Source: a virus. From it: a stretch of 36,416 bases of DNA. Position 1 is the first letter of the stretch, and every line of letters starts with the position of its first letter. The notes under the pieces are model-generated. The model was not told the origin of the DNA and did no database searches. It saw nothing but the letters and a program-made list of their open reading frames with translations. The stretch is taken from UHGV virus genome UHGV-1512937, one strand, 5' to 3'. A program made the translations under genes and the position numbers. This document shows positions 11,411-36,416 of this stretch, piece by piece.

Positions 11411-11645
11411 GTGCGGTTTTATATCGTGATGTCGCCGCCACATCGCCAATTAGCATGACGTTGTTTTCTCCGCTGGCGAAATGACTTCTTCTCTCTTCAA
11501 GTGCAACCAGAACGTTTTTCAGCTCTATAATCGCTTCGGTTGGACAACATGCATCCAAGCTTAGCGTGTAAGTTTTATTCTGCTCTCCGATTCTGCTCCC
11601 AAAGAGGAACCCTTTTTTAATACCAGACTGTTTCGGTTCAGTCAT
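11322..11645 (-). CDS. hypothetical protein with strong RBS
   Basis: Internal ATG at 11645 (MTEPKQSGIKKGFLFG...) is preceded by GGGGAGG at optimal spacing; ~107 aa; divergent from the late operon. Confidence 0.5.
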   Translation of the reverse strand: MTEPKQSGIKKGFLFGSRIGEQNKTYTLSLDACCPTEAIIELKNVLVALEERRSHFASGENNVMLIGDVAATSRYKTAPNPAIQLSFDQRILEAESAVPRTVRPHQS

Positions 11646-11775
11646 TGTGCTTGCCTCCCCTATGTTTTGTGTGCGACCATTCTGGTCGCTTCCCTCTGCG
11701 AACACTTATAACGCGCTTTAAAATCCGTATCCCGCCACATTTGTGATGCTGTCTCCACCAAACAAGGAGACACAC

Positions 11776-12126
11776 ATGAAAAGCCTGAAAAAATTCATTC
11801 CCCCTGTTAAAAAACCTCGCCTCAGCGGCTGGCTGCTGACCTCAGTGCTGTTGCTGGGCACCATCGCTCTGGTCTCGCCACAGCAGTTGCCTGTTGTGAT
11901 CTACAAGCTGGCACTCATCACGCTGGCAGCAGTGCTGGGTTACTGGCTTGACCGTTCGCTCTTCCCCAAAGCCCGTCCCGGTCAGTACCTGAAACATGAA
12001 GACAGGCTGATGGCTGAAGGGCGTTTCCCTGTGCAGACCGGCCTTCACCTTGTATTTTCTGCTGCGTTAATCCGCCGTGCACTGATTGTTGCAGCGGTCT
12101 GTCTGGCTGTGGCAACAGGACTGTGA
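11776..12126 (+). CDS. putative holin / small membrane lysis protein
   Basis: ATG at 11776 preceded by AAGGAGA; ~116 aa with hydrophobic helices (LSGWLLTSVLLLGTIALV, LALITLAAVLGYWL, IVAAVCLAVATGL); immediately upstream of the transglycosylase gene. Confidence 0.5.
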   Translation: MKSLKKFIPPVKKPRLSGWLLTSVLLLGTIALVSPQQLPVVIYKLALITLAAVLGYWLDRSLFPKARPGQYLKHEDRLMAEGRFPVQTGLHLVFSAALIRRALIVAAVCLAVATGL

Positions 12127-12128
12127 CC

Positions 12129-12857
12129 ATGAACTGGCCTCAAATCACCCTCATTATTCTGTTCGCCTTTGGTCTGGGCGTAACCGCCATCAGACACGGC
12201 GAACCACGTAACGATAAATACAGCTTCTGGTGGCAGCTTGCTGGCAACCTGGTGATTGTCTGGCTGCTCTGGTGTGGTGGCTTCTTCAGTCAGGCCCGCG
12301 CAGCGCAGCCTCCGCAGGCTGCGCTGCAGTATCGCGATGATGTGATCCGTAATGCCCGGCTTGAATGGGGACTGTCTGCGCCGGTGGCAGATTTCGCCGC
12401 GCAACTGCATCAGGAAAGCGGCTGGCGACCTGATGCGGTCTCGCCGGCTGGTGCTCAGGGACTGGCGCAGTTCATGCCTGCCACTGCCGACTGGATAAGT
12501 CAGCTGATGCCGGGACTTAACAGCCGTGAGCCGTTTAATCCGGCATGGGCCATCCGGGCGCTGGTCAGCTATGACCGCTGGCTGTGGCAGCGCGTCAGCG
12601 CCGCCAACGACTGCGAGCGTATGGCCATGACACTGTCAGGCTATAACGGTGGTCTGGGCTGGGTACAACGGGACAGGCGGCTTGCATCACAGAAAGGTCT
12701 GGACAGCACCCGCTGGTTCGGACATGTCGCCACGGTGAATGCCGGACGCAATGCGGCCAGCTGGCGGGAGAACCGCCATTATCCGCAGCGCATCCTGCGC
12801 GAACTGGCACCGCGATATCTCACATGGGGAGGCAGCAGTTGTGTGGCATCTGGTTAA
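12129..12857 (+). CDS. lytic transglycosylase (SLT-domain endolysin) with N-terminal membrane/signal-anchor region
   Basis: SLT-like catalytic motif LHQESGWRPDAVSPAGAQGLAQFMP; hydrophobic N-terminus (ITLIILFAFGLGVTAI, LVIVWLLWCGGFF). In-frame GTG at 12123 is an alternative start. Confidence 0.8.
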   Translation: MNWPQITLIILFAFGLGVTAIRHGEPRNDKYSFWWQLAGNLVIVWLLWCGGFFSQARAAQPPQAALQYRDDVIRNARLEWGLSAPVADFAAQLHQESGWRPDAVSPAGAQGLAQFMPATADWISQLMPGLNSREPFNPAWAIRALVSYDRWLWQRVSAANDCERMAMTLSGYNGGLGWVQRDRRLASQKGLDSTRWFGHVATVNAGRNAASWRENRHYPQRILRELAPRYLTWGGSSCVASG

Positions 12858-29218: not shown

Positions 29219-30360
29219 ACAGTACTGCGCAAGCCACATCAGCGTTAACCGGCGTCAGCGATGTGCTGACGCCGGTATTCACTCTGTGGTATTTGCAGAA
29301 AAACATCACCTCTGATATCGCGCCTTATGTCACCCGTGTGGTCTGGAGCGATAACATCAAAAATGAGTCCGATACCATTGAGGTGGAGCTGGACGACACC
29401 GATGGCCGCTGGCTGGATAAGTGGTATCCGGGCAAGGGTGACACGCTGACGCTGAAAATGGGTTATCAGGGCGAGAAACTGCTGTCCTACGGTACATTCT
29501 CAATAGACGAGATCGAAGTGAGTTCGCCCGCGTCCGTTGTCGCTATCCGTGGGGTGGCCACCTCGGTTAACAGTGCTCTGCGGACTAAATCCAGCCGTGG
29601 TTTTGAGAACACCACGCTGGCAGCTGTTGCGGGTCGGATTGCCAGAAAGCACCGGCTGAAACTGGTGGGCAGCATTGAGTCCATCAGAATCGACCGGGTG
29701 ACCCAGTATGCTGAAACCGACGTGGGTTTTCTGCGCCGGCTGGCCAGCGAGTATGGTTATGCAGTGAAAGTGGTCAGTGACCAGTTGATTTTTTCTCATC
29801 TGGCCACATTGCGCAGTCAGGAGCCGGTCAGGCAGTTAAAACCGCAGGATGTGGCCCACTTTTCCCTGCGTGACACCATCAACCGGGTCTATAAATCTGC
29901 AAAGGTAAAACACCAGAAAAGCAGCAGTAAAAAACTGATCGTCTACGAAGCTGATGGTGGTACCCGTGAAAGCGACAAAAAGCTCAAAGGCGGTAAGGTT
30001 ACCAGCGCTGACTCACTTAAAGTTAACAGCCGCGTCAGCGACCCGGACAGTGCCCGGATTAAAGCGGATTCAGCACTGGCCAGACATAACGAATACCAGC
30101 AGAACGGCTCCCTGACGCTGACGGGAACGCCTCAACTGACAGCAGGCAACAAAATTGAACTGGTGGGCTTTGGACAATTATCCGGTCCATGGCTGATAAT
30201 CACTGCCCGCCATGCGTTTGAGCGTAACAGCGGCTACACCACAGAGCTGGAAGTGGCACGGGGGCCAGTCACAAGAGGGAAAAAACAAAAAACTCAGAAA
30301 CTCACGGTTTATCACCCGGATGGCAGTACATCGACGGTGATTAAGGAGAAGAAAAAATGA
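29206..30360 (+). CDS. baseplate hub / late control gene D-like protein (P2 gpD, Mu gp44 family)
   Basis: 384 aa; size and order after the tape measure and U/X genes. Confidence 0.75.
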   Translation: MAEINSTAQATSALTGVSDVLTPVFTLWYLQKNITSDIAPYVTRVVWSDNIKNESDTIEVELDDTDGRWLDKWYPGKGDTLTLKMGYQGEKLLSYGTFSIDEIEVSSPASVVAIRGVATSVNSALRTKSSRGFENTTLAAVAGRIARKHRLKLVGSIESIRIDRVTQYAETDVGFLRRLASEYGYAVKVVSDQLIFSHLATLRSQEPVRQLKPQDVAHFSLRDTINRVYKSAKVKHQKSSSKKLIVYEADGGTRESDKKLKGGKVTSADSLKVNSRVSDPDSARIKADSALARHNEYQQNGSLTLTGTPQLTAGNKIELVGFGQLSGPWLIITARHAFERNSGYTTELEVARGPVTRGKKQKTQKLTVYHPDGSTSTVIKEKKK

Positions 30361-30869
30361 CTGGTGTCACCCGCCAGGTCGGTACGGTCAGTGCCGTTGA
30401 TGCCGACAGGGTTCAGGCCCGCGTTCGTCTGCCTGAATGCGATAATCTGCGCACAAACTGGCTTAACGTGCTGCAGCGCAATACCCAGGATAACAAGGAT
30501 TACTGGCTCCCTGACGTGGGGGAGCAGGTTGAGGTGCTGCTCGATGCCAACGGCGAGGATGGTGTTATTCTGGGCGCGGTGTACTCAGACGTCGATAAAC
30601 CGCCGTTCGGTGATAAAAACGTCCGGGGCACGAAGTACGCTGATGGCGCGGAGTTCAGTTATGACCGCGCGACCCATACGCTGACGGTCAAAGGAGGTAT
30701 CGAGCATGTGGTGATCGAGGTTGCAGTGGGTATTAGTCTGAAAGGGAAAACCATTGATTTGACAGCTGACACTATCATGGTGAACGGCAATCTTGAAATC
30801 AAAGGGAGTACCCATGCGACTGGTAACATATTTGCAGATGGACAGAATTCCAATCATCACTCTCACTAA
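30357..30869 (+). CDS. baseplate spike protein (gpV-like)
   Basis: 170 aa; ATGA-coupled to the gpD-like gene; size and position. Confidence 0.7.
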   Translation: MTGVTRQVGTVSAVDADRVQARVRLPECDNLRTNWLNVLQRNTQDNKDYWLPDVGEQVEVLLDANGEDGVILGAVYSDVDKPPFGDKNVRGTKYADGAEFSYDRATHTLTVKGGIEHVVIEVAVGISLKGKTIDLTADTIMVNGNLEIKGSTHATGNIFADGQNSNHHSH

Positions 30870-30950: not shown

Positions 30951-31826
30951 ATGCGGTTATCAAGATCCTTATGTAAAGTAGTTGGCGATGTCATTGCTAA
31001 CTCAGGCTCTCATGCAGCTTTAGATACGTTATTTCTTACTTCGGGAGCACCAGGAAACCCTCCGGCAGGATCTCATAGTACAAAATGGAAAGACTGGTTA
31101 TTTCTTGCAGGGCAAGATCCAGATACAGATAGTCTGGCAGTTCTGGGCGGAGTAATTGAGGAGTTTATGGATTTACCTCCAAAAGAAGGTACTCCCGAAT
31201 ATGCAGAATGGAAGGAAAAACGAGACAGAATTGAAGCTGTGTTACAAGAGAATGGACTTAGATATTATCGTTTTGGTCGAGTGTTGCCTGAAGGCCACAT
31301 CCCGTCACACAATATGGATTACCCAGAGACCATAATTACTTATCAACAGCCAGTAATGCCAGAAAAAGTTGAGAACTTACTGGAAAGGCTGGTCAAAGGC
31401 TTACAGCGAGCAATGCATCCACTTACTCATAGGCGAAAAGGAAGCCAGTCATTATCTTTTAGCAATGAATATGACGTGCAAGACCTTCTCCATGCATTGC
31501 TCAGACCATGGGTTCAGGACATCCGCCCAGAAGAGTTTACTCCAAGTTACGCTGGTTCAAGTACTCGAATGGATTTTTTGTTACCTGCGCATAAATTAGT
31601 ACTGGAAACCAAAATTGTTCGTGATCGTTCTCATGCAAAGAAAATCGGCGATGAACTTATTATCGATATAGAGCATTATCGTCGGCACTCTGATTGCAAA
31701 AATCTCTGGTGTGTCATCTACGATCCGAACCAGCTTATTACTAATTCTGAGGGGCTGAAATCTGATCTTGAGGGGAAGAGAGTCTCTAAAGACGGAGAAC
31801 TTATCGTCAAGGTTTTCGTAATTTAA
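30951..31826 (+). CDS. AT-rich inserted gene; protein with C-terminal PD-(D/E)xK-like motif (putative nuclease, candidate defence/abortive-infection gene)
   Basis: 291 aa; much lower GC by eye than flanking baseplate genes; C-terminal EYDVQDLLHALL ... RMDFLLPAHKLVLETKIV matches the E ... D ... ExK layout of restriction-endonuclease-fold nucleases. Confidence 0.55.
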   Translation: MRLSRSLCKVVGDVIANSGSHAALDTLFLTSGAPGNPPAGSHSTKWKDWLFLAGQDPDTDSLAVLGGVIEEFMDLPPKEGTPEYAEWKEKRDRIEAVLQENGLRYYRFGRVLPEGHIPSHNMDYPETIITYQQPVMPEKVENLLERLVKGLQRAMHPLTHRRKGSQSLSFSNEYDVQDLLHALLRPWVQDIRPEEFTPSYAGSSTRMDFLLPAHKLVLETKIVRDRSHAKKIGDELIIDIEHYRRHSDCKNLWCVIYDPNQLITNSEGLKSDLEGKRVSKDGELIVKVFVI

Positions 31827-31897: not shown

Positions 31898-32245
31898 ATG
31901 AAAACGACCTCAGTATTCTGGCAACCGGCTCTGCAGGCTCCCGGCGAAATCGTCCGGGGGCTGGATGATATCCAGCAGTCCATCCAGATCATCCTGCGGA
32001 CTCCCCGCGGCAGCGACCCGCATCGCCCAGAGTTCGGCAGCAATCTGCACCTTTATATCGACTGGCCTGTCGACCGGGCCATTCCGCATGTGGTTCGCGA
32101 ATCCGTCGATGCCATCAGGCGCTGGGAACCCCGCTGCCAGCTTATGTCGGTTAAACCCGCCGTCGACGGCGAACATCTTACGCTCCGGGTGAGCTGGAAA
32201 GGCTCAGACGGACAACCCCGTACTCAGGAACTGCTATGGCGCTGA
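31898..32245 (+). CDS. baseplate wedge protein (gpW / gp25-like)
   Basis: 115 aa; size and position before the gpJ-like gene; ATG sits in a GGGGCA-ATAC-TGCCCC hairpin and has no obvious Shine-Dalgarno. Confidence 0.65.
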   Translation: MKTTSVFWQPALQAPGEIVRGLDDIQQSIQIILRTPRGSDPHRPEFGSNLHLYIDWPVDRAIPHVVRESVDAIRRWEPRCQLMSVKPAVDGEHLTLRVSWKGSDGQPRTQELLWR

Positions 32246-33912: not shown

Positions 33913-34866
33913 ATGGCAAATCTACCTGAAACCCCACAGTGGGAAGACGGCATCTACCAGATTGAGGTCTCTGACCCCGTTCTGGGCGGGCCTGACGGAA
34001 TTTCTAACCGTCAGGGTAAACAACTGGCCAGCCGCACGCTGTACCTGAAGCAACAGGTTGAAAAAGGCGGGGCTGACCTTGCGAAACACATCGCGGCAGC
34101 AGACCCGCATGCCCAGTATGCACCGAAAGCCAGTCCGGCATTCACCGGCACACCAACAGCACCTACACCTGCAAATGGCGATAACAGCAAAAAGCTGGCG
34201 ACGACGGAGTTTGTGGCCAAAGCACTTGCGGCGCTTGCAGGCAGCGCCCCTGAGACACTGGATACGCTTAAAGAGCTGGCTGACGCTCTCGGTAATGATC
34301 CAAACTTTGCGACTACGGTACTGAACAAGCTGGCGGAAAAGCTGGCTAAAGACCAGAACGGCGCAGATATTCCTGATCCTGCGCTGTTTGTCAAAAACCT
34401 TGGTTTGGGGGAAGGCTCTGCACTGCCCGTTGGTGTGCCCGTTCCGTGGCCCTCAGCAACACCGCCAACGGGCTGGCTGAAATGTAACGGCGCAGCATTT
34501 TCTTCTGAAATGTACCCCAGGCTGGCAAAGGCTTATCCGACCAATAAATTACCGGATTTACGGGGCGAATTTATCCGTGGCTGGGATGACGGACGAGGTA
34601 TTGATGCAGGACGAGAGATACTTTCATTTCAGGAAGGCACTATCGTCTCCGGTTTTGATGATAATGATACTGGGGATATCAGTTCACTCAGCTCAACACA
34701 ATACGGATTTGGTGACACTTTAACCTCTAATCAATGGGGGGCCATAAATGGCAAAAAGTGGATATTTGATGCATCCAGTAAAGGTGCCAAAAAATATGAC
34801 TGGTGGGCTTATGTATCAGCTCGTCCGCGTAATATTGCATTTAATTACATCGTAAGAGCGGCATAG
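33913..34866 (+). CDS. tail fibre protein with lambda Stf / P2 H-like C-terminal receptor-binding domain (cassette V1 fused to the constant part)
   Basis: 317 aa; TLDTLKELADALGNDPNFATT resembles the conserved fibre repeat of P2 H and lambda Stf; the C-terminal part (GEGSALPVGVPVPWPS ... LPDLRGEFIRGWDDGRG ... NIAFNYIVRAA) resembles the lambda Stf C-terminus and tail-collar domain. Confidence 0.85.
   Translation: MANLPETPQWEDGIYQIEVSDPVLGGPDGISNRQGKQLASRTLYLKQQVEKGGADLAKHIAAADPHAQYAPKASPAFTGTPTAPTPANGDNSKKLATTEFVAKALAALAGSAPETLDTLKELADALGNDPNFATTVLNKLAEKLAKDQNGADIPDPALFVKNLGLGEGSALPVGVPVPWPSATPPTGWLKCNGAAFSSEMYPRLAKAYPTNKLPDLRGEFIRGWDDGRGIDAGREILSFQEGTIVSGFDDNDTGDISSLSSTQYGFGDTLTSNQWGAINGKKWIFDASSKGAKKYDWWAYVSARPRNIAFNYIVRAA
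34388..34413. promoter_or_regulatory. Hin/Gin-family (serine invertase) crossover site inside the tail fibre ORF
   Basis: TTGTCAAAAACCTTGGTTTGGGGGAA matches the remembered hixL sequence (TTATCAAAAACCTTGGTTTTCAAGAA) at about 21 of 26 positions and Mu gixL similarly; it lies exactly where the fibre constant part meets the variable C-terminus. Confidence 0.6.
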
Positions 34867-34870
34867 AAAC

Positions 34871-35305
34871 GTTGGTTTGGGGGAAGGCTCTGCACTGCCC
34901 GTTGGTGTGCCTGTTCCGTGGCCCTCAGCCACACCGCCAACAGGCTGGCTGAAATGTAACGGTGCAGTATTTTCTGCTGGGAAGTACCCCAAACTGGCAC
35001 AGGCTTACCCCACCAATAAATTACCGGATTTACGGGGCGAATTTATTCGTGGCTGGGATGATGGACGTGGAGTGGACAATGGGCGAGCATTATTAAGCAG
35101 GCAGGAGGCTACAAATTTTTCTTATTACGGAGGTAATTTCGATATTGGGTCTGGTCATTCAATCAATAACTATGACCAAATCGTTGACAACCAACCTGGA
35201 TTCTCCCGTTTTTCATTTGCAGGTCCTTCGCGAGGCGATGGGGTTAATTTTGTGACCATTCGTCCTCGTAATATTGCGTTTAATTACATCGTAAGGGCAG
35301 CATGA
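34871..35305 (+). other. promoterless alternative tail-fibre C-terminal cassette V2
   Basis: Open frame beginning with the same ~200-bp conserved 5' module as V1 (GEGSALPVGVPVPWPS ... RGWDDGRG) and ending with the same conserved C-terminus (RPRNIAFNYIVRAA), with a divergent central region; no ATG start or RBS. Confidence 0.6.
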
Positions 35306-35309
35306 AAAC

Positions 35310-35792
35310 GTTGGTTTGGGGGAAGGCTCTGCGCTGCCCGTTGGTGTGCCCGTTCCGTGGCCCTCAGCAACACCACCAGCAGGGTGGCTGAAATGTAACG
35401 GCGCAGCATTTTCTTCTGAAATGTACCCCAGGCTGGCAAAGGCTTATCCGACCAATAAATTACCGGATTTACGGGGCGAATTTATCCGTGGCTGGGATGA
35501 CGGGCGAGGGATTGATGCAGGACGTGCTTTATTGAGCTTTCAAACTGGGATGCTGGAAAAACACCGCCATATTGTTGTAGCTAACGATGGGTATGACACA
35601 AAGGATGAATGGGAGTTGGCCACAATTTTCAAAAAAACATATTCACAAGGCCGGGGACTTGATGCTGCAAATACAGGAGGGAGTTTGATTCCATCACCAA
35701 CGCTTCATTCACGAGGAAGTATTGGTAACACTGGTGGTAGTGAAACTCGCCCCCGCAATATTGCATTTAACTATATCGTGAGGGCGGCTTAA
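35310..35792 (+). other. promoterless alternative tail-fibre C-terminal cassette V3
   Basis: Same architecture as V2: conserved 5' module nearly identical to V1, distinct central region, conserved end (RPRNIAFNYIVRAA). Confidence 0.6.
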
Positions 35793-35798
35793 TTATAC

Positions 35799-36416
35799 TC
35801 AACTGGCTGCTGCCAGAGGCATTTCCGGCCAGTTGATATCCGGTGCAGTGCTGATGTCAGTCGCATTAAGCGCATCTATGAAATCAAGCACGGCGTTTAG
35901 TTTTTCCGTCTCCTGGGGCGTCAATCGGCGTCCGGCTCGTAGTTTGAGATTAATAAGCTCAACAGATGCCATTGCCTGTTCCTCAAGTTGCTGACGATGC
36001 GCTCCGGCAGCTTCCAGTTCTGCTGCGTGCTGTCGTCTCGTATCTGTCACCCAGGTCTCACCATCCCAGACATCATAGATGGTAGCTGGCTGTTTCACCG
36101 TCGTATCTGAAGGGTAATCTCCCGGCTGTGTGATTTGCACAGCGTTACCATTCTCTGTGCTGTAAACCGTTTCGCCTCTGTGGTCTGGAACATATTTCCA
36201 GATGTTCTGGTCGGTATCACGACAGACAGCGAAGCCGGGGCGTTTTTCTGGTGGCGCGTCAATGCATGAGTGAGCCGGAATTCCAACACCATAAGCGAGA
36301 TATTCAACAGTGGCAGAGAGATATTCACGGTTTTCAGCATCGTAGTTATAAACGGTAATATCGCCTGCAGTTATAGCGATACCATTCTGATCAAGTACTG
36401 CAGCAGCATTATTCAT
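35799..36416 (-). CDS. tail fibre assembly protein (lambda Tfa / Mu U family), convergent with the fibre cassettes
   Basis: 205 aa; DHRGETVYSTENG and TDISTAPDINWPEMP resemble lambda Tfa (DHRGKTVY ..., VDTSTAPDIEWPAVP). The ATG coincides with the last three bases of the window, so the start cannot be confirmed from upstream sequence. Confidence 0.8.
   Translation of the reverse strand: MNNAAAVLDQNGIAITAGDITVYNYDAENREYLSATVEYLAYGVGIPAHSCIDAPPEKRPGFAVCRDTDQNIWKYVPDHRGETVYSTENGNAVQITQPGDYPSDTTVKQPATIYDVWDGETWVTDTRRQHAAELEAAGAHRQQLEEQAMASVELINLKLRAGRRLTPQETEKLNAVLDFIDALNATDISTAPDINWPEMPLAAAS

What the first reader, a model, noticed from the sequence alone, without database searches (positions are those of the whole stretch)
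35799..36416. Tail fibre assembly gene is convergent with the fibre cassettes, so the expressed fibre lacks a same-strand chaperone
In Mu, P1 and lambda the Tfa-type chaperone follows the fibre C-terminus on the same strand. Here the only tfa-like gene is on the opposite strand, ending 7 bp after cassette V3, and beginning at the window edge. This implies further minus-strand cassettes beyond the window belonging to the same invertible region, and that V1 either works without a cognate chaperone or uses one supplied in trans.
Basis: inference. Interest (0 to 1): 0.5.

Follow-up and report, generated by a model that had tools for sequence, protein, structure and literature searches.

The report
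Shared chaperone gene in invertible fibre array
The opposite-strand chaperone gene is the single shared assembly gene of a known kind of DNA-flipping switch that swaps phage tail-fibre tips, and its backward orientation is just one of several states seen in sister strains.

Summary
A 205-aa Caudo_TAP (Tfa) gene lies at 35799-36416 on the minus strand, 6 bp from the stop of cassette V3. Its ATG is the last three bases of the window, and it is the only tfa in the prophage.

Beyond the edge lie a fourth minus-strand collar cassette (V4) joined to tfa by TAATG, an inverted crossover site, a Gin-like serine invertase, and then host DNA.

The element is a Mu-like transposable prophage carrying a p15B-Min-type multiple-inversion fibre array. 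Sister prophages with identical proteins show other isomers. In six strains tfa lies same-strand downstream of the expressed fibre. Others express V2 or V3.

Across about 150 related loci, multi-cassette arrays always have exactly one tfa. Every cassette type that lacks a tfa in arrays has a directly coupled tfa elsewhere. Near-identical Tfa proteins follow unrelated tips. Tfa is therefore generic for the conserved T4-gp37-like collar, not cognate to one tip.

How fibres fold when tfa is antisense remains unresolved. This is a new member of a known kind, of modest interest.

The parts
33913..34404 (+). Constant 5' part of the tail fibre gene (Hc, 164 aa). It is fused in this isomer to cassette V1, giving the 317-aa fibre at 33913-34866.
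   Evidence: ORF. RefSeq WP_074157625.1. Residues 137-167 match the end of the constant part of Mu fibre S (PDB 5YVQ, 8JU3). The same Hc is fused to V2 (306 aa) in DEF2 and A33, and to V3 (322 aa) in CFIAFB20190167.
34388..34413 (+). Crossover site s1: TTGTCAAAAACC TT GGTTTGGGGGAA, core TT at 34400-34401. It marks the junction between the constant part and the variable part.
   Evidence: Alignment of the four sites. It is the same site type as EC958 Phi2 (PMC4134206 Table 3) and as the p15B-min-like region of pMCR_SCKP-LL83.
34405..34866 (+). Cassette V1, a collar-type tip of 153 aa, expressed in this isomer.
   Evidence: Pfam Collar E 3.7e-14. Homology to the T4 gp37 tip (PDB 2XGF), covering both the collar and the C-terminal NIAFNYIVR strand. 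In DEF2 it is found as a silent cassette next to the invertase.
34860..34885 (+). Crossover site s2: GGCATAGAAACG TT GGTTTGGGGGAA, in direct orientation to s1.
   Evidence: The DEF10, 3-72 and GABEEC10 isomers are explained by an s2 x s4 inversion.
34877..35305 (+). Cassette V2, collar-type, 142 aa, silent in this isomer.
   Evidence: Pfam Collar E 3.4e-15. It is expressed as Hc-V2 in DEF2 and A33.
35299..35324 (+). Crossover site s3: AGCATGAAAACG TT GGTTTGGGGGAA, in direct orientation to s1.
   Evidence: The FEA3 isomer is explained by an s3 x s4 inversion.
35316..35792 (+). Cassette V3, collar-type, 158 aa, silent in this isomer. It sits tail-to-tail with tfa and stays linked to it in every isomer.
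   Evidence: Pfam Collar E 4.8e-15. It is expressed as Hc-V3 (322 aa) with tfa convergent 6 bp downstream in CFIAFB20190167. The variable region has dN/dS of 0.03-0.21 between array copies.
35799..36416 (-). tfa, the single Tfa-type tail fibre assembly (chaperone) gene of the array, 205 aa. It is translationally coupled (TAATG) to the off-window cassette V4.
   Evidence: Pfam Caudo_TAP E 2e-26. RefSeq WP_001057644.1. The TAATG overlap with V4 is seen in L001 at 11513-11519.

Off-window partners in L001 (window coordinate = L001 coordinate + 24899):
- V4 at 11517-12020 on the minus strand.
- Site s4 at 12012-12037, inverted.
- Invertase at 12092-12664 on the plus strand.
- The 3' part of host yehQ from 12741.

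Best explanation
The gene at 35799-36416 is the one shared Tfa-type assembly chaperone of a multi-site invertible tail-fibre array. The array belongs to a Mu-like transposable prophage and has the same architecture as the Min region of plasmid p15B.

**Layout.** Hc | s1> V1 | s2> V2 | s3> V3 > < tfa < V4 <s4 | invertase >. The last three elements lie just beyond the window.

**Cassette structure.** Each cassette is a T4-gp37-like collar domain split into about 73 N-terminal residues and about 15 C-terminal residues (RPRNIAFNYIVRAA). A variable receptor-binding insert sits between the two halves.

**Switching.** A Gin/Pin/Min-family serine invertase recombines the one inverted site with any of the directly oriented sites. 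Successive inversions can fuse any of the four cassettes to the constant part. V1, V2 and V3 fusions were observed; a V4 fusion was not.

**Position of tfa.** There is no crossover site between V3, tfa and V4, so these three always travel together. In every isomer tfa is therefore either the last sense gene of the late fibre operon or the most distal antisense gene. The window shows the antisense state.

**Shown:** the anatomy, the invertase family, the sites, the natural isomers, one tfa per array, and the lack of Tfa/tip co-variation.

**Inferred (about 0.5):** Tfa is a generic helper acting on the conserved collar and C-terminus. In sense isomers it is made from the fibre transcript using its own Shine-Dalgarno sequence (AAGGG, encoded by the conserved V-R-A codons). 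In antisense isomers such as this one the fibre is made without it and is still at least partly functional. On this reading Tfa is helpful rather than obligatory for V1- and V3-type tips.
For: **Anatomy beyond the window.** Searches show V4, the TAATG coupling, the invertase and the host junction.

**Crossover sites.** There are four 26-bp sites with a TT core, three direct and one inverted. They are the same site type as published for EC958 Phi2.

**Invertase.** It has Resolvase and HTH_7 domains. It matches Mu Gin (PDB 3UJ3, 4M6F) with E 6e-90 over residues 1-183.

**Natural isomers of the same prophage (identical protein accessions):**

| Strain(s) | Arrangement |
|---|---|
| 8178 | Hc-V1>V2>V3><tfa<V4 |
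| FEA3 | Hc-V1>V2>V4>tfa><V3 |
| DEF10, 3-72, GABEEC10, JNEC-KY202 | Hc-V1>V4>tfa><V3<V2 |
| DEF2 | Hc-V2>V4>tfa><V3<V1 |
| CFIAFB20190167 | Hc-V3><tfa<V4... |

**One tfa per array.** L077 has 6 cassettes, L099 at least 9, L102-L104 have 5, A33 has 7, A31 has 5, and the P1-like L117-L121 have 3. The p15B-min-like region of pMCR_SCKP-LL83 has 9 cassettes and 1 tfa.

**Collar homology and chaperone dependence.** The cassettes match T4 gp37 (2XGF) in both the collar and the C-terminal strand. The gp37 D10 collar spans residues 811-881 plus 1010-1026, with D11 as an insertion (PMC6957217). gp37 needs the gp38 chaperone, but the need can be bypassed (PMC3004832).

**Tfa is generic.**
- V1-, V2- and V3-type cassettes each occur elsewhere with a directly coupled tfa: 4/24, 2/12 and 9/19 respectively.
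- Tfa proteins 96-99% identical follow unrelated tip types.
- The same tip type precedes Tfa proteins only 31% identical in the N-domain.
- The C-terminus RPRNIAFNYIVRAA is near-universal.
- Non-collar cassettes use a different, short Tfa.

**Function without a sense tfa.**
- V3, which can never be expressed with a sense tfa in this array, has dN/dS of 0.04-0.21 among arrays where it holds that position.
- Systems with two cassettes and one tfa exist (L097, L109, KP12).
- V1-type fibres occur with no tfa in a Rahnella P2-like tail module and in Xenorhabdus.
Against: No experiment bears on whether fibres fold in the antisense state.

The prevalence and conservation of a directly coupled tfa behind collar cassettes (110 complete pairs) argue that Tfa matters. 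So does the gp38 requirement of T4 gp37.

The purifying-selection signal on V3 could have been acquired while copies resided in tfa-coupled contexts, because cassettes move between arrays. In L099 and L027, for example, the V3-type cassette holds a different position.

The locus sample was gathered with Hc-V1 as the query, so V1-containing arrays are over-represented. Divergent tfa genes could be missed by my HMM at E<=1e-5.

The Rahnella and Xenorhabdus elements might be defective, or might use a tfa encoded elsewhere.

The primary p15B papers could not be read. The p15B comparison rests on a plasmid reported to be 99% identical to the min region.
Confidence: 0.8

Rival explanations
1. tfa is cognate to V4 only. 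V1, V2 and V3 are chaperone-independent tips that never need a Tfa.
For: Only V4 is translationally coupled to tfa. In this sample 20 of 24 V1-type and 10 of 12 V2-type cassettes lack a cis tfa. V1-type fibres occur with no tfa nearby in Rahnella and Xenorhabdus. The gp38 dependence of T4 gp37 can be bypassed by small changes.
Against: V1-, V2- and V3-type cassettes are each found elsewhere with a directly coupled tfa. In other arrays the coupled cassette is a different type: V1-type in L103, cl7 in L117-L121, cl10 in L099. Tfa does not co-vary with tip type. All cassettes share the same collar and C-terminus.
Confidence: 0.3
2. Tfa is obligatory and is expressed only in the sense orientation. 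On this view isomers such as the one in the window give fibre-defective, non-infectious particles, and V3 is effectively a dead cassette in this array. The cost is tolerated because inversion restores productive states.
For: A coupled tfa is the norm for collar cassettes. T4 gp37 requires gp38. No promoter was found that would express an antisense tfa. Orientation in lysogen assemblies is neutral, so both states are expected (4 strains antisense, 6 sense).
Against: V3-type cassettes in the never-sense position remain intact and under purifying selection. Systems with two cassettes and one tfa would have one pointless state. The phage is evidently active, since identical prophages sit at three different insertion sites.
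Confidence: 0.25
3. Tfa is supplied regardless of orientation. It could come from an unrecognised leftward promoter at the right border, which would read through the antisense cassettes into tfa. Alternatively it could come in trans from another prophage's tfa.
For: In every isomer all cassettes between the right border and an antisense tfa point the same way as tfa, so one fixed leftward promoter would suffice (logic). tfa has its own Shine-Dalgarno sequence. Tfa is generic within the collar family. From general knowledge, lambda Tfa can replace T4 gp38.
Against: No sigma-70-like promoter reads leftward anywhere in L001 9000-12800. Only one place in the 8178 chromosome matches this tfa at DNA level. 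Resident cryptic-prophage tfa genes are not expected to be induced with this phage's late genes.
Confidence: 0.12
4. The tandem cassettes are static duplications or pseudogene debris, not part of an invertible system, and the convergent tfa is a remnant.
For: Some assemblies annotate V2 as a pseudogene, 'missing N-terminus'. The 220-bp repeats could arise by duplication.
Against: At least five different arrangements of identical components occur in sister strains. Each is explained by recombination exactly at the 26-bp sites, and V1, V2 or V3 is found fused in frame to Hc. An intact Gin-like invertase lies adjacent.
Confidence: 0.01

Closest known systems
Min multiple DNA-inversion system of plasmid p15B, and p15B-min-like regions of P1/P7-like phage-plasmids such as pMCR_SCKP-LL83
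   Same: Both have several 3' fibre cassettes, each preceded by a crossover site of the same sequence (AAACGTTGGTTT[AG]GGGGAA). The cassettes are collar-type. There is a single tfa sandwiched tail-to-tail between two cassettes and coupled to one of them. An adjacent Pin/Min-type serine invertase is transcribed away from the array. The invertase of the P1-like plasmid pD72-mcr1 has the same length as the one here and a neighbouring RefSeq accession (WP_001165547 against WP_001165549); the two sequences were not aligned.
   Different: The array here sits on a Mu-like transposable prophage with a short 164-aa constant part, not on a P1-like plasmid with a long repeat-rich S protein. It has four cassettes and four sites, against six sites in p15B (from memory of Sandmeier 1990/1991; papers not readable here) and nine cassettes in pMCR_SCKP-LL83.
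G segment of phage Mu (Sc | Sv-U / U'-S'v | gin) and C segment of P1
   Same: The genome type (Mu-like) and position (right end, followed by a Gin-like invertase) are the same. A constant fibre part is fused to alternative 3' parts at a 26-bp site. The end of the constant part is homologous to Mu S residues 144-174. The invertase matches Gin with E 6e-90.
   Different: Mu and P1 have two mirror-image fibre-tfa pairs and two sites. Here there are four cassettes, four sites and one tfa. The cassettes are collar-type (gp37-like), not Mu Sv-type. The Tfa gave no phmmer hit to any PDB chain, including Mu Tfa.
Invertible collar-domain fibre regions of E. coli prophages (EC958 Phi2; Forde et al. 2014, PMC4134206)
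   Same: Both have collar-domain 3' cassettes, a GGTTTGGGGGAA-type crossover site, roughly 200-bp inverted repeats covering the collar, and inversion seen in long-read data.
   Different: The EC958 regions are described as mirror-image pairs, each with its own downstream 'minor tail fibre' (tfa) gene. That is the classic two-cassette, two-tfa layout, also seen here in L080, L081 and L086-L088.
T4 gp37 receptor-binding tip with chaperone gp38
   Same: The cassette matches the gp37 D10 collar halves, including the C-terminal NIAFNYIVR strand, with a variable insert in the position of D11. Both have a separate small chaperone gene immediately downstream.
   Different: T4 has one fixed tip and no inversion. 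gp38 is not a Caudo_TAP protein by this analysis. V1 and V2 lack the HxH motifs of the gp37 needle, while V3 and V4 each have one.

Membership tests
Hin/Gin/Cin/Pin/Min serine DNA-invertase systems | Small (about 190 aa) serine recombinase with an N-terminal resolvase catalytic domain and a C-terminal HTH, closely related to Gin | tested here: met
   Resolvase E 4e-51 and HTH_7 E 1e-13. Matches Mu Gin structures 4M6F and 3UJ3 with E 6e-90 over residues 1-183. The gene lies off-window at L001 12092-12664.
Hin/Gin/Cin/Pin/Min serine DNA-invertase systems | 26-bp crossover sites made of two imperfect inverted 12-bp half sites around a 2-bp core, with recombining partners in inverted orientation | tested here: met
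   s1-s3 are direct and s4 is inverted, all with core TT and right half GGTTTGGGGGAA. They match the published consensus and the EC958 Phi2 site.
Hin/Gin/Cin/Pin/Min serine DNA-invertase systems | The segment is actually found in alternative orientations | tested here: met
   At least five arrangements of identical components occur in sister prophages, with breakpoints at the sites. Co-existing isomers within one culture were not examined.
Hin/Gin/Cin/Pin/Min serine DNA-invertase systems | Fis-dependent recombinational enhancer, usually in the 5' part of the invertase gene | not tested
   No scan for Fis sites was made.
p15B Min-type multiple inversion array | More than two crossover sites, with overlapping invertible segments that fuse one of several 3' cassettes to a constant 5' part | tested here: met
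   Four sites and four cassettes. In-frame Hc-V1, Hc-V2 and Hc-V3 fusions are observed in different strains.
p15B Min-type multiple inversion array | Same site sequence, the same collar-cassette family and a single internal tfa, as in the min region | tested here: met
   Mapped on pMCR_SCKP-LL83, reported 99% identical to p15B min. It has 9 collar cassettes, 1 tfa and 8 sites of sequence AAACGTTGGTTT[AG]GGGGAA. The p15B sequence itself was not examined.
Tfa / Caudo_TAP tail fibre assembly proteins (lambda Tfa, Mu U, P2 G) | Caudo_TAP domain above Pfam gathering score in the C-terminal part, with a non-conserved N-terminal domain | tested here: met
   PF02413 at 93 bits (cut-off 22), residues 80-200.
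Tfa / Caudo_TAP tail fibre assembly proteins (lambda Tfa, Mu U, P2 G) | Gene lies immediately downstream of a fibre C-terminus on the same strand | tested here: met
   Met for V4 through the TAATG overlap. Not met for the cassette expressed in this isomer (V1).
Tfa / Caudo_TAP tail fibre assembly proteins (lambda Tfa, Mu U, P2 G) | Required for trimerisation and folding of its fibre | not testable with these tools
   Needs co-expression or genetic tests.
Mu G-segment layout (two mirror-image fibre-tfa pairs) | Each alternative fibre 3' part has its own tfa downstream | tested here: not met
   One tfa serves four cassettes.
T4 gp37/gp12-type collar fibre tips | Collar domain formed by an N-terminal segment plus the returning C-terminal strand, with the receptor-binding part as an insertion | tested here: met
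   Met at sequence level only. Pfam Collar. Alignment to 2XGF residues 26-121 and 229-242. Domain boundaries from PMC6957217. No structure was predicted.

The most novel reading that the evidence does not exclude
Because the single tfa flips with the array, chaperone supply is itself phase-variable. Each cassette other than V3 and V4 can be expressed with or without a same-strand tfa (V3 never has one, V4 always does). Suppose this Tfa stays bound at the fibre tip, as reported for Mu Tfa (North et al. 2019, recalled from memory), or is needed by only some tips. The array would then encode a second layer of variation, tip identity multiplied by Tfa on or off. That would nearly double the repertoire, or deliberately produce a fraction of fibre-less, non-adsorbing particles. 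Alternatively, collar-type tips would be shown to fold without any dedicated chaperone.
Probability: 0.12. Interest if true: 0.6.

Novelty: new member of a known kind. Interest (0 to 1): 0.3.

Why it matters
The result shows that what looked like a fibre gene without its chaperone is one state of a Min-type multiple-inversion switch, here carried by an active Mu-like phage of E. coli. This matters for annotation, because silent cassettes are routinely labelled 'phage tail protein' or pseudogene.

It also exposes a question that I found unaddressed in the literature I could search. These arrays hold 2-9 or more cassettes and always exactly one generic tfa. In about half of the isomers that gene is antisense to the fibre operon, and the cassette tail-to-tail with it can never be expressed with it in sense.

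Knowing whether collar-type tips need Tfa would help phage and tailocin engineering, where a chaperone is routinely co-transferred with each new tip.

Tried and rejected
- **Orientation-independent promoter.** A sigma-70 promoter and terminator scan of L001 9000-12800 looked for a leftward promoter that could express an antisense tfa. None was found: one weak plus-strand hit, fewer than in shuffles. Mu-type late promoters are not covered by that scan, so the idea is weakened but not excluded.\n- **Trans supply by a close paralogue.** Only one place in each 8178 chromosome matches this tfa by blastn.\n- **Primary p15B papers.** PMID 1534556, PMC329034 and PMC53420 are not held. I used pMCR_SCKP-LL83 as a proxy instead.\n- **Literature on arrays with a single tfa.** Searches and four papers read gave no statement on the chaperone problem.\n- **Tfa against solved structures and NCBIfam.** No hits.\n- **pD72-mcr1 plasmid array.** It is disrupted by mcr-1/ISApl1, so it was not informative.\n- **AlphaFold prediction.** I considered predicting a cassette or Tfa but did not run it. 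A monomer model of an interwoven trimeric tip would not decide chaperone dependence.\n- **HxH motif idea.** I considered whether the presence of an HxH (metal-binding) motif predicts a coupled tfa. Types without HxH (cl1, cl7, cl9, cl11) are mostly tfa-coupled, so this was rejected.

Full report
**1. Observation**

The ORF at 35799-36416 on the minus strand encodes 205 aa. It matches Pfam Caudo_TAP with E 2e-26 over residues 80-200. Its stop codon lies 6 bp from the stop of cassette V3, which ends at 35792. Its ATG is the last three bases of the window.

Upstream on the plus strand lies a 317-aa fibre (33913-34866), followed by two further ORFs (34877-35305 and 35316-35792). All three carry the Pfam Collar domain.

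**2. Where the window comes from and what lies beyond it**

The last 2.5 kb of the window is 100% identical to three assemblies of E. coli strain 8178. In NZ_CP151934.1 the element carries a DDE transposase, a MuB-like ATPase, Gam, GemA, Mor and a P2/Mu-type contractile tail. It is a Mu-like transposable prophage inserted in yehQ.

Beyond the window edge, in L001 coordinates (window = L001 + 24899), the order is:
- A fourth collar cassette, V4, on the minus strand at 11517-12020 (167 aa). Its stop overlaps the tfa start as TAATG.
- An inverted crossover site at 12012-12037.
- A 190-aa recombinase on the plus strand at 12092-12664.
- The 3' remnant of yehQ, then yehR.

These features are shown. 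The recombinase has Resolvase and HTH_7 domains and matches Mu Gin (PDB 4M6F, 3UJ3) with E 6e-90. RefSeq annotation and my own HMM each find only one tfa in the whole prophage.

**3. Anatomy of the switch**

The four cassettes share about 220 nt at the 5' end (89-95% identity) and 46 nt at the 3' end. The alignment shows four 26-bp sites with a common right half (GGTTTGGGGGAA) and a TT core:

| Site | Sequence | Orientation |
|---|---|---|
| s1 | TTGTCAAAAACC TT GGTTTGGGGGAA | direct |
| s2 | GGCATAGAAACG TT GGTTTGGGGGAA | direct |
| s3 | AGCATGAAAACG TT GGTTTGGGGGAA | direct |
| s4 | same type | inverted |

This is the site type published for the collar-domain invertible region of EC958 prophage Phi2 (PMC4134206).

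No site lies between V3, tfa and V4, so this block is indivisible. Every inversion joins a sense site to an antisense site across the single convergence point. It follows by logic that in every isomer all cassettes left of that point are sense and all to the right are antisense. tfa is then either the last sense gene or the most distal antisense gene. It also follows that V3, when expressed, always has tfa antisense.

**4. The switch is active**

Prophages with identical protein accessions (Hc-V1 WP_074157625, V3 WP_042030618, V4 WP_024224888, Tfa WP_001057644, invertase WP_001165549) occur in other arrangements.

| Strain(s) | Arrangement | Step from 8178 |
|---|---|---|
| FEA3 | Hc-V1>V2>V4>tfa><V3 | s3 x s4 |
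| DEF10, 3-72, GABEEC10, JNEC-KY202 | Hc-V1>V4>tfa><V3<V2 | s2 x s4 |
| DEF2 | Hc-V2>V4>tfa><V3<V1 | at least three steps |
| CFIAFB20190167 | Hc-V3 with tfa convergent 6 bp downstream | |

Relatives A31 and A33 have 5 and 7 cassettes respectively, again with one tfa.

The same prophage sits in yehQ, next to aqpZ, and in the pdu operon. It has therefore transposed or infected recently. The 'missing same-strand chaperone' is one state of the switch: six strains have tfa in sense and four have it in antisense.

**5. How general is one tfa per array?**

I fetched about 150 loci encoding relatives of Hc-V1. I mapped the fibre constant part, collar cassettes, tfa and invertase with iterated HMMs. 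Three layouts recur:

- **(a) Classic mirror pairs.** C>T><T<C, with a tfa for each collar cassette (L080, L081, L086-L088).
- **(b) Mixed pairs.** C>T> paired with a non-collar cassette that has its own different, short 131-aa Tfa (for example L078).
- **(c) Arrays.** Two to nine or more collar cassettes with exactly one tfa, always sandwiched C>T><C with a constant tail-to-tail spacing. Examples are L077, L097, L099, L102-L104, L109 and L117-L121.

pMCR_SCKP-LL83 has an invertible region reported to be 99% identical to p15B min (PMC5786510). It maps as nine collar cassettes, one tfa, eight sites of the same sequence, and pin. The window's array is therefore a Min-type multiple-inversion system carried on a Mu-like phage.

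**6. What the cassettes and Tfa are**

The cassette matches the T4 gp37 tip (PDB 2XGF) in its first roughly 95 residues and again in the last 14 residues (NIAFNYIVR). In gp37 those two segments form the D10 collar, and the receptor-binding D11 is an insertion between them (PMC6957217). This explains the conserved cassette ends as one structural domain.

gp37 needs the chaperone gp38, although a small change can bypass that need (PMC3004832).

I clustered 201 complete cassettes by variable region. Every type that lacks a tfa in arrays is directly followed by a tfa elsewhere: V1-type in 4 of 24, V2-type in 2 of 12, V3-type in 9 of 19, and V4-type in 7 of 8. The C-terminus RPRNIAFNYIVRAA is near-universal.

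Tfa proteins 96-99% identical sit behind unrelated tip types. The same tip type sits before Tfa proteins only 31% identical in the N-domain. Tfa is therefore specific to the collar family but generic within it, and 'cognate chaperone' is not the right concept here.

**7. The open step: folding when tfa is antisense**

Three observations point to functional fibres without a sense tfa:
- V3-type variable regions have dN/dS of 0.04-0.21 among arrays where V3 is the tail-to-tail partner of tfa.
- Systems with two cassettes and one tfa exist (L097, L109, KP12).
- V1-type fibres occur without any tfa in a Rahnella P2-like tail module, where H is followed directly by the sheath gene. They also occur at the end of Xenorhabdus elements.

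Against this, the coupled tfa is the norm for collar cassettes. No leftward sigma-70 promoter was found. No close tfa paralogue exists in the 8178 chromosome.

I favour, at about 0.5, that Tfa is a helper supplied in cis in sense isomers and dispensable enough in antisense ones. The rival that antisense isomers are simply non-productive stays at about 0.25. Orientation-independent or trans supply stays at about 0.12.

**8. Verdict**

The structural inference is confirmed. The functional inference is only partly apt. The system is a new member of a known kind (p15B Min, Mu G, and EC958-type collar-cassette inversion). The residual interest lies in the unaddressed question of how arrays with a single tfa supply chaperone function.

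**Caveats**

- Sampling was biased by the Hc-V1 query.
- tfa detection was HMM-based at E<=1e-5.
- The p15B comparison was made through a proxy plasmid.
- There are no expression or folding data.

Noticed in passing
window 30951-31826 (+): A 291-aa ORF matches Pfam REase_DpnII-MboI (E 4e-47) and is annotated in some assemblies as a PD-(D/E)XK nuclease. It is inserted between baseplate genes gpV (30357-30869) and gpW (31898-32245). Relatives A31, A33 and Klebsiella phage KP12 have V directly followed by W, so this is accessory cargo in the baseplate operon, possibly defence or exclusion. No adjacent methylase was seen.
   Followed up: partly
window about 1-260 and L001 12665-12741; loci L160, L162, L163: The prophage is a Mu-like transposable phage that splits host gene yehQ. 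Prophages with identical fibre, tfa and invertase proteins sit at other sites: next to aqpZ in GABEEC10, and in the pdu operon in JNEC-KY202 and CFIAFB20190167. This indicates recent transposition or infection.
   Followed up: partly
window 34405-35792, and L001 11517-12020: Each cassette has about 220 nt at the 5' end and 46 nt at the 3' end conserved at 83-95% identity. These correspond to the two halves of a T4-gp37 D10 collar domain. The long direct repeats could also support RecA-dependent deletion or duplication, which fits the cassette numbers of 3-9 or more seen in relatives.
   Followed up: partly
window 35793-35798; also L077, L097, L099, L102-L104, L109, L117-L121, L159: The tail-to-tail joint between a cassette stop and the tfa stop has a constant spacing (6-8 bp between stops) in all single-tfa arrays, whichever cassette type occupies the position. 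This suggests the arrays derive from a C>T><T<C ancestor by precise loss of one tfa. No terminator lies in the gap.
   Followed up: no
window 35284-35305 (3' end of V2): The V2 3' end reads ...AAGGGCAGCATGA. An ATG overlaps the stop codon behind the Shine-Dalgarno-like AAGGG, the same arrangement that couples V4 to tfa. It may be a relic of a lost tfa start.
   Followed up: no
L006 5749-6210 (Klebsiella phage KP12) and L078 7546-8402: A second, non-collar cassette family (40% identity between KP12 and L078) has its own short 131-aa Tfa in L078 but no tfa at all in KP12. The one-tfa-for-two-cassettes layout therefore also occurs across cassette families.
   Followed up: partly
L021 5458-7772 (Rahnella laticis): A P2-type H fibre carries a V1-type collar tip (76% identical to V1). 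It is followed directly by the tail sheath and tube genes, with no gene G (tfa) between them.
   Followed up: partly
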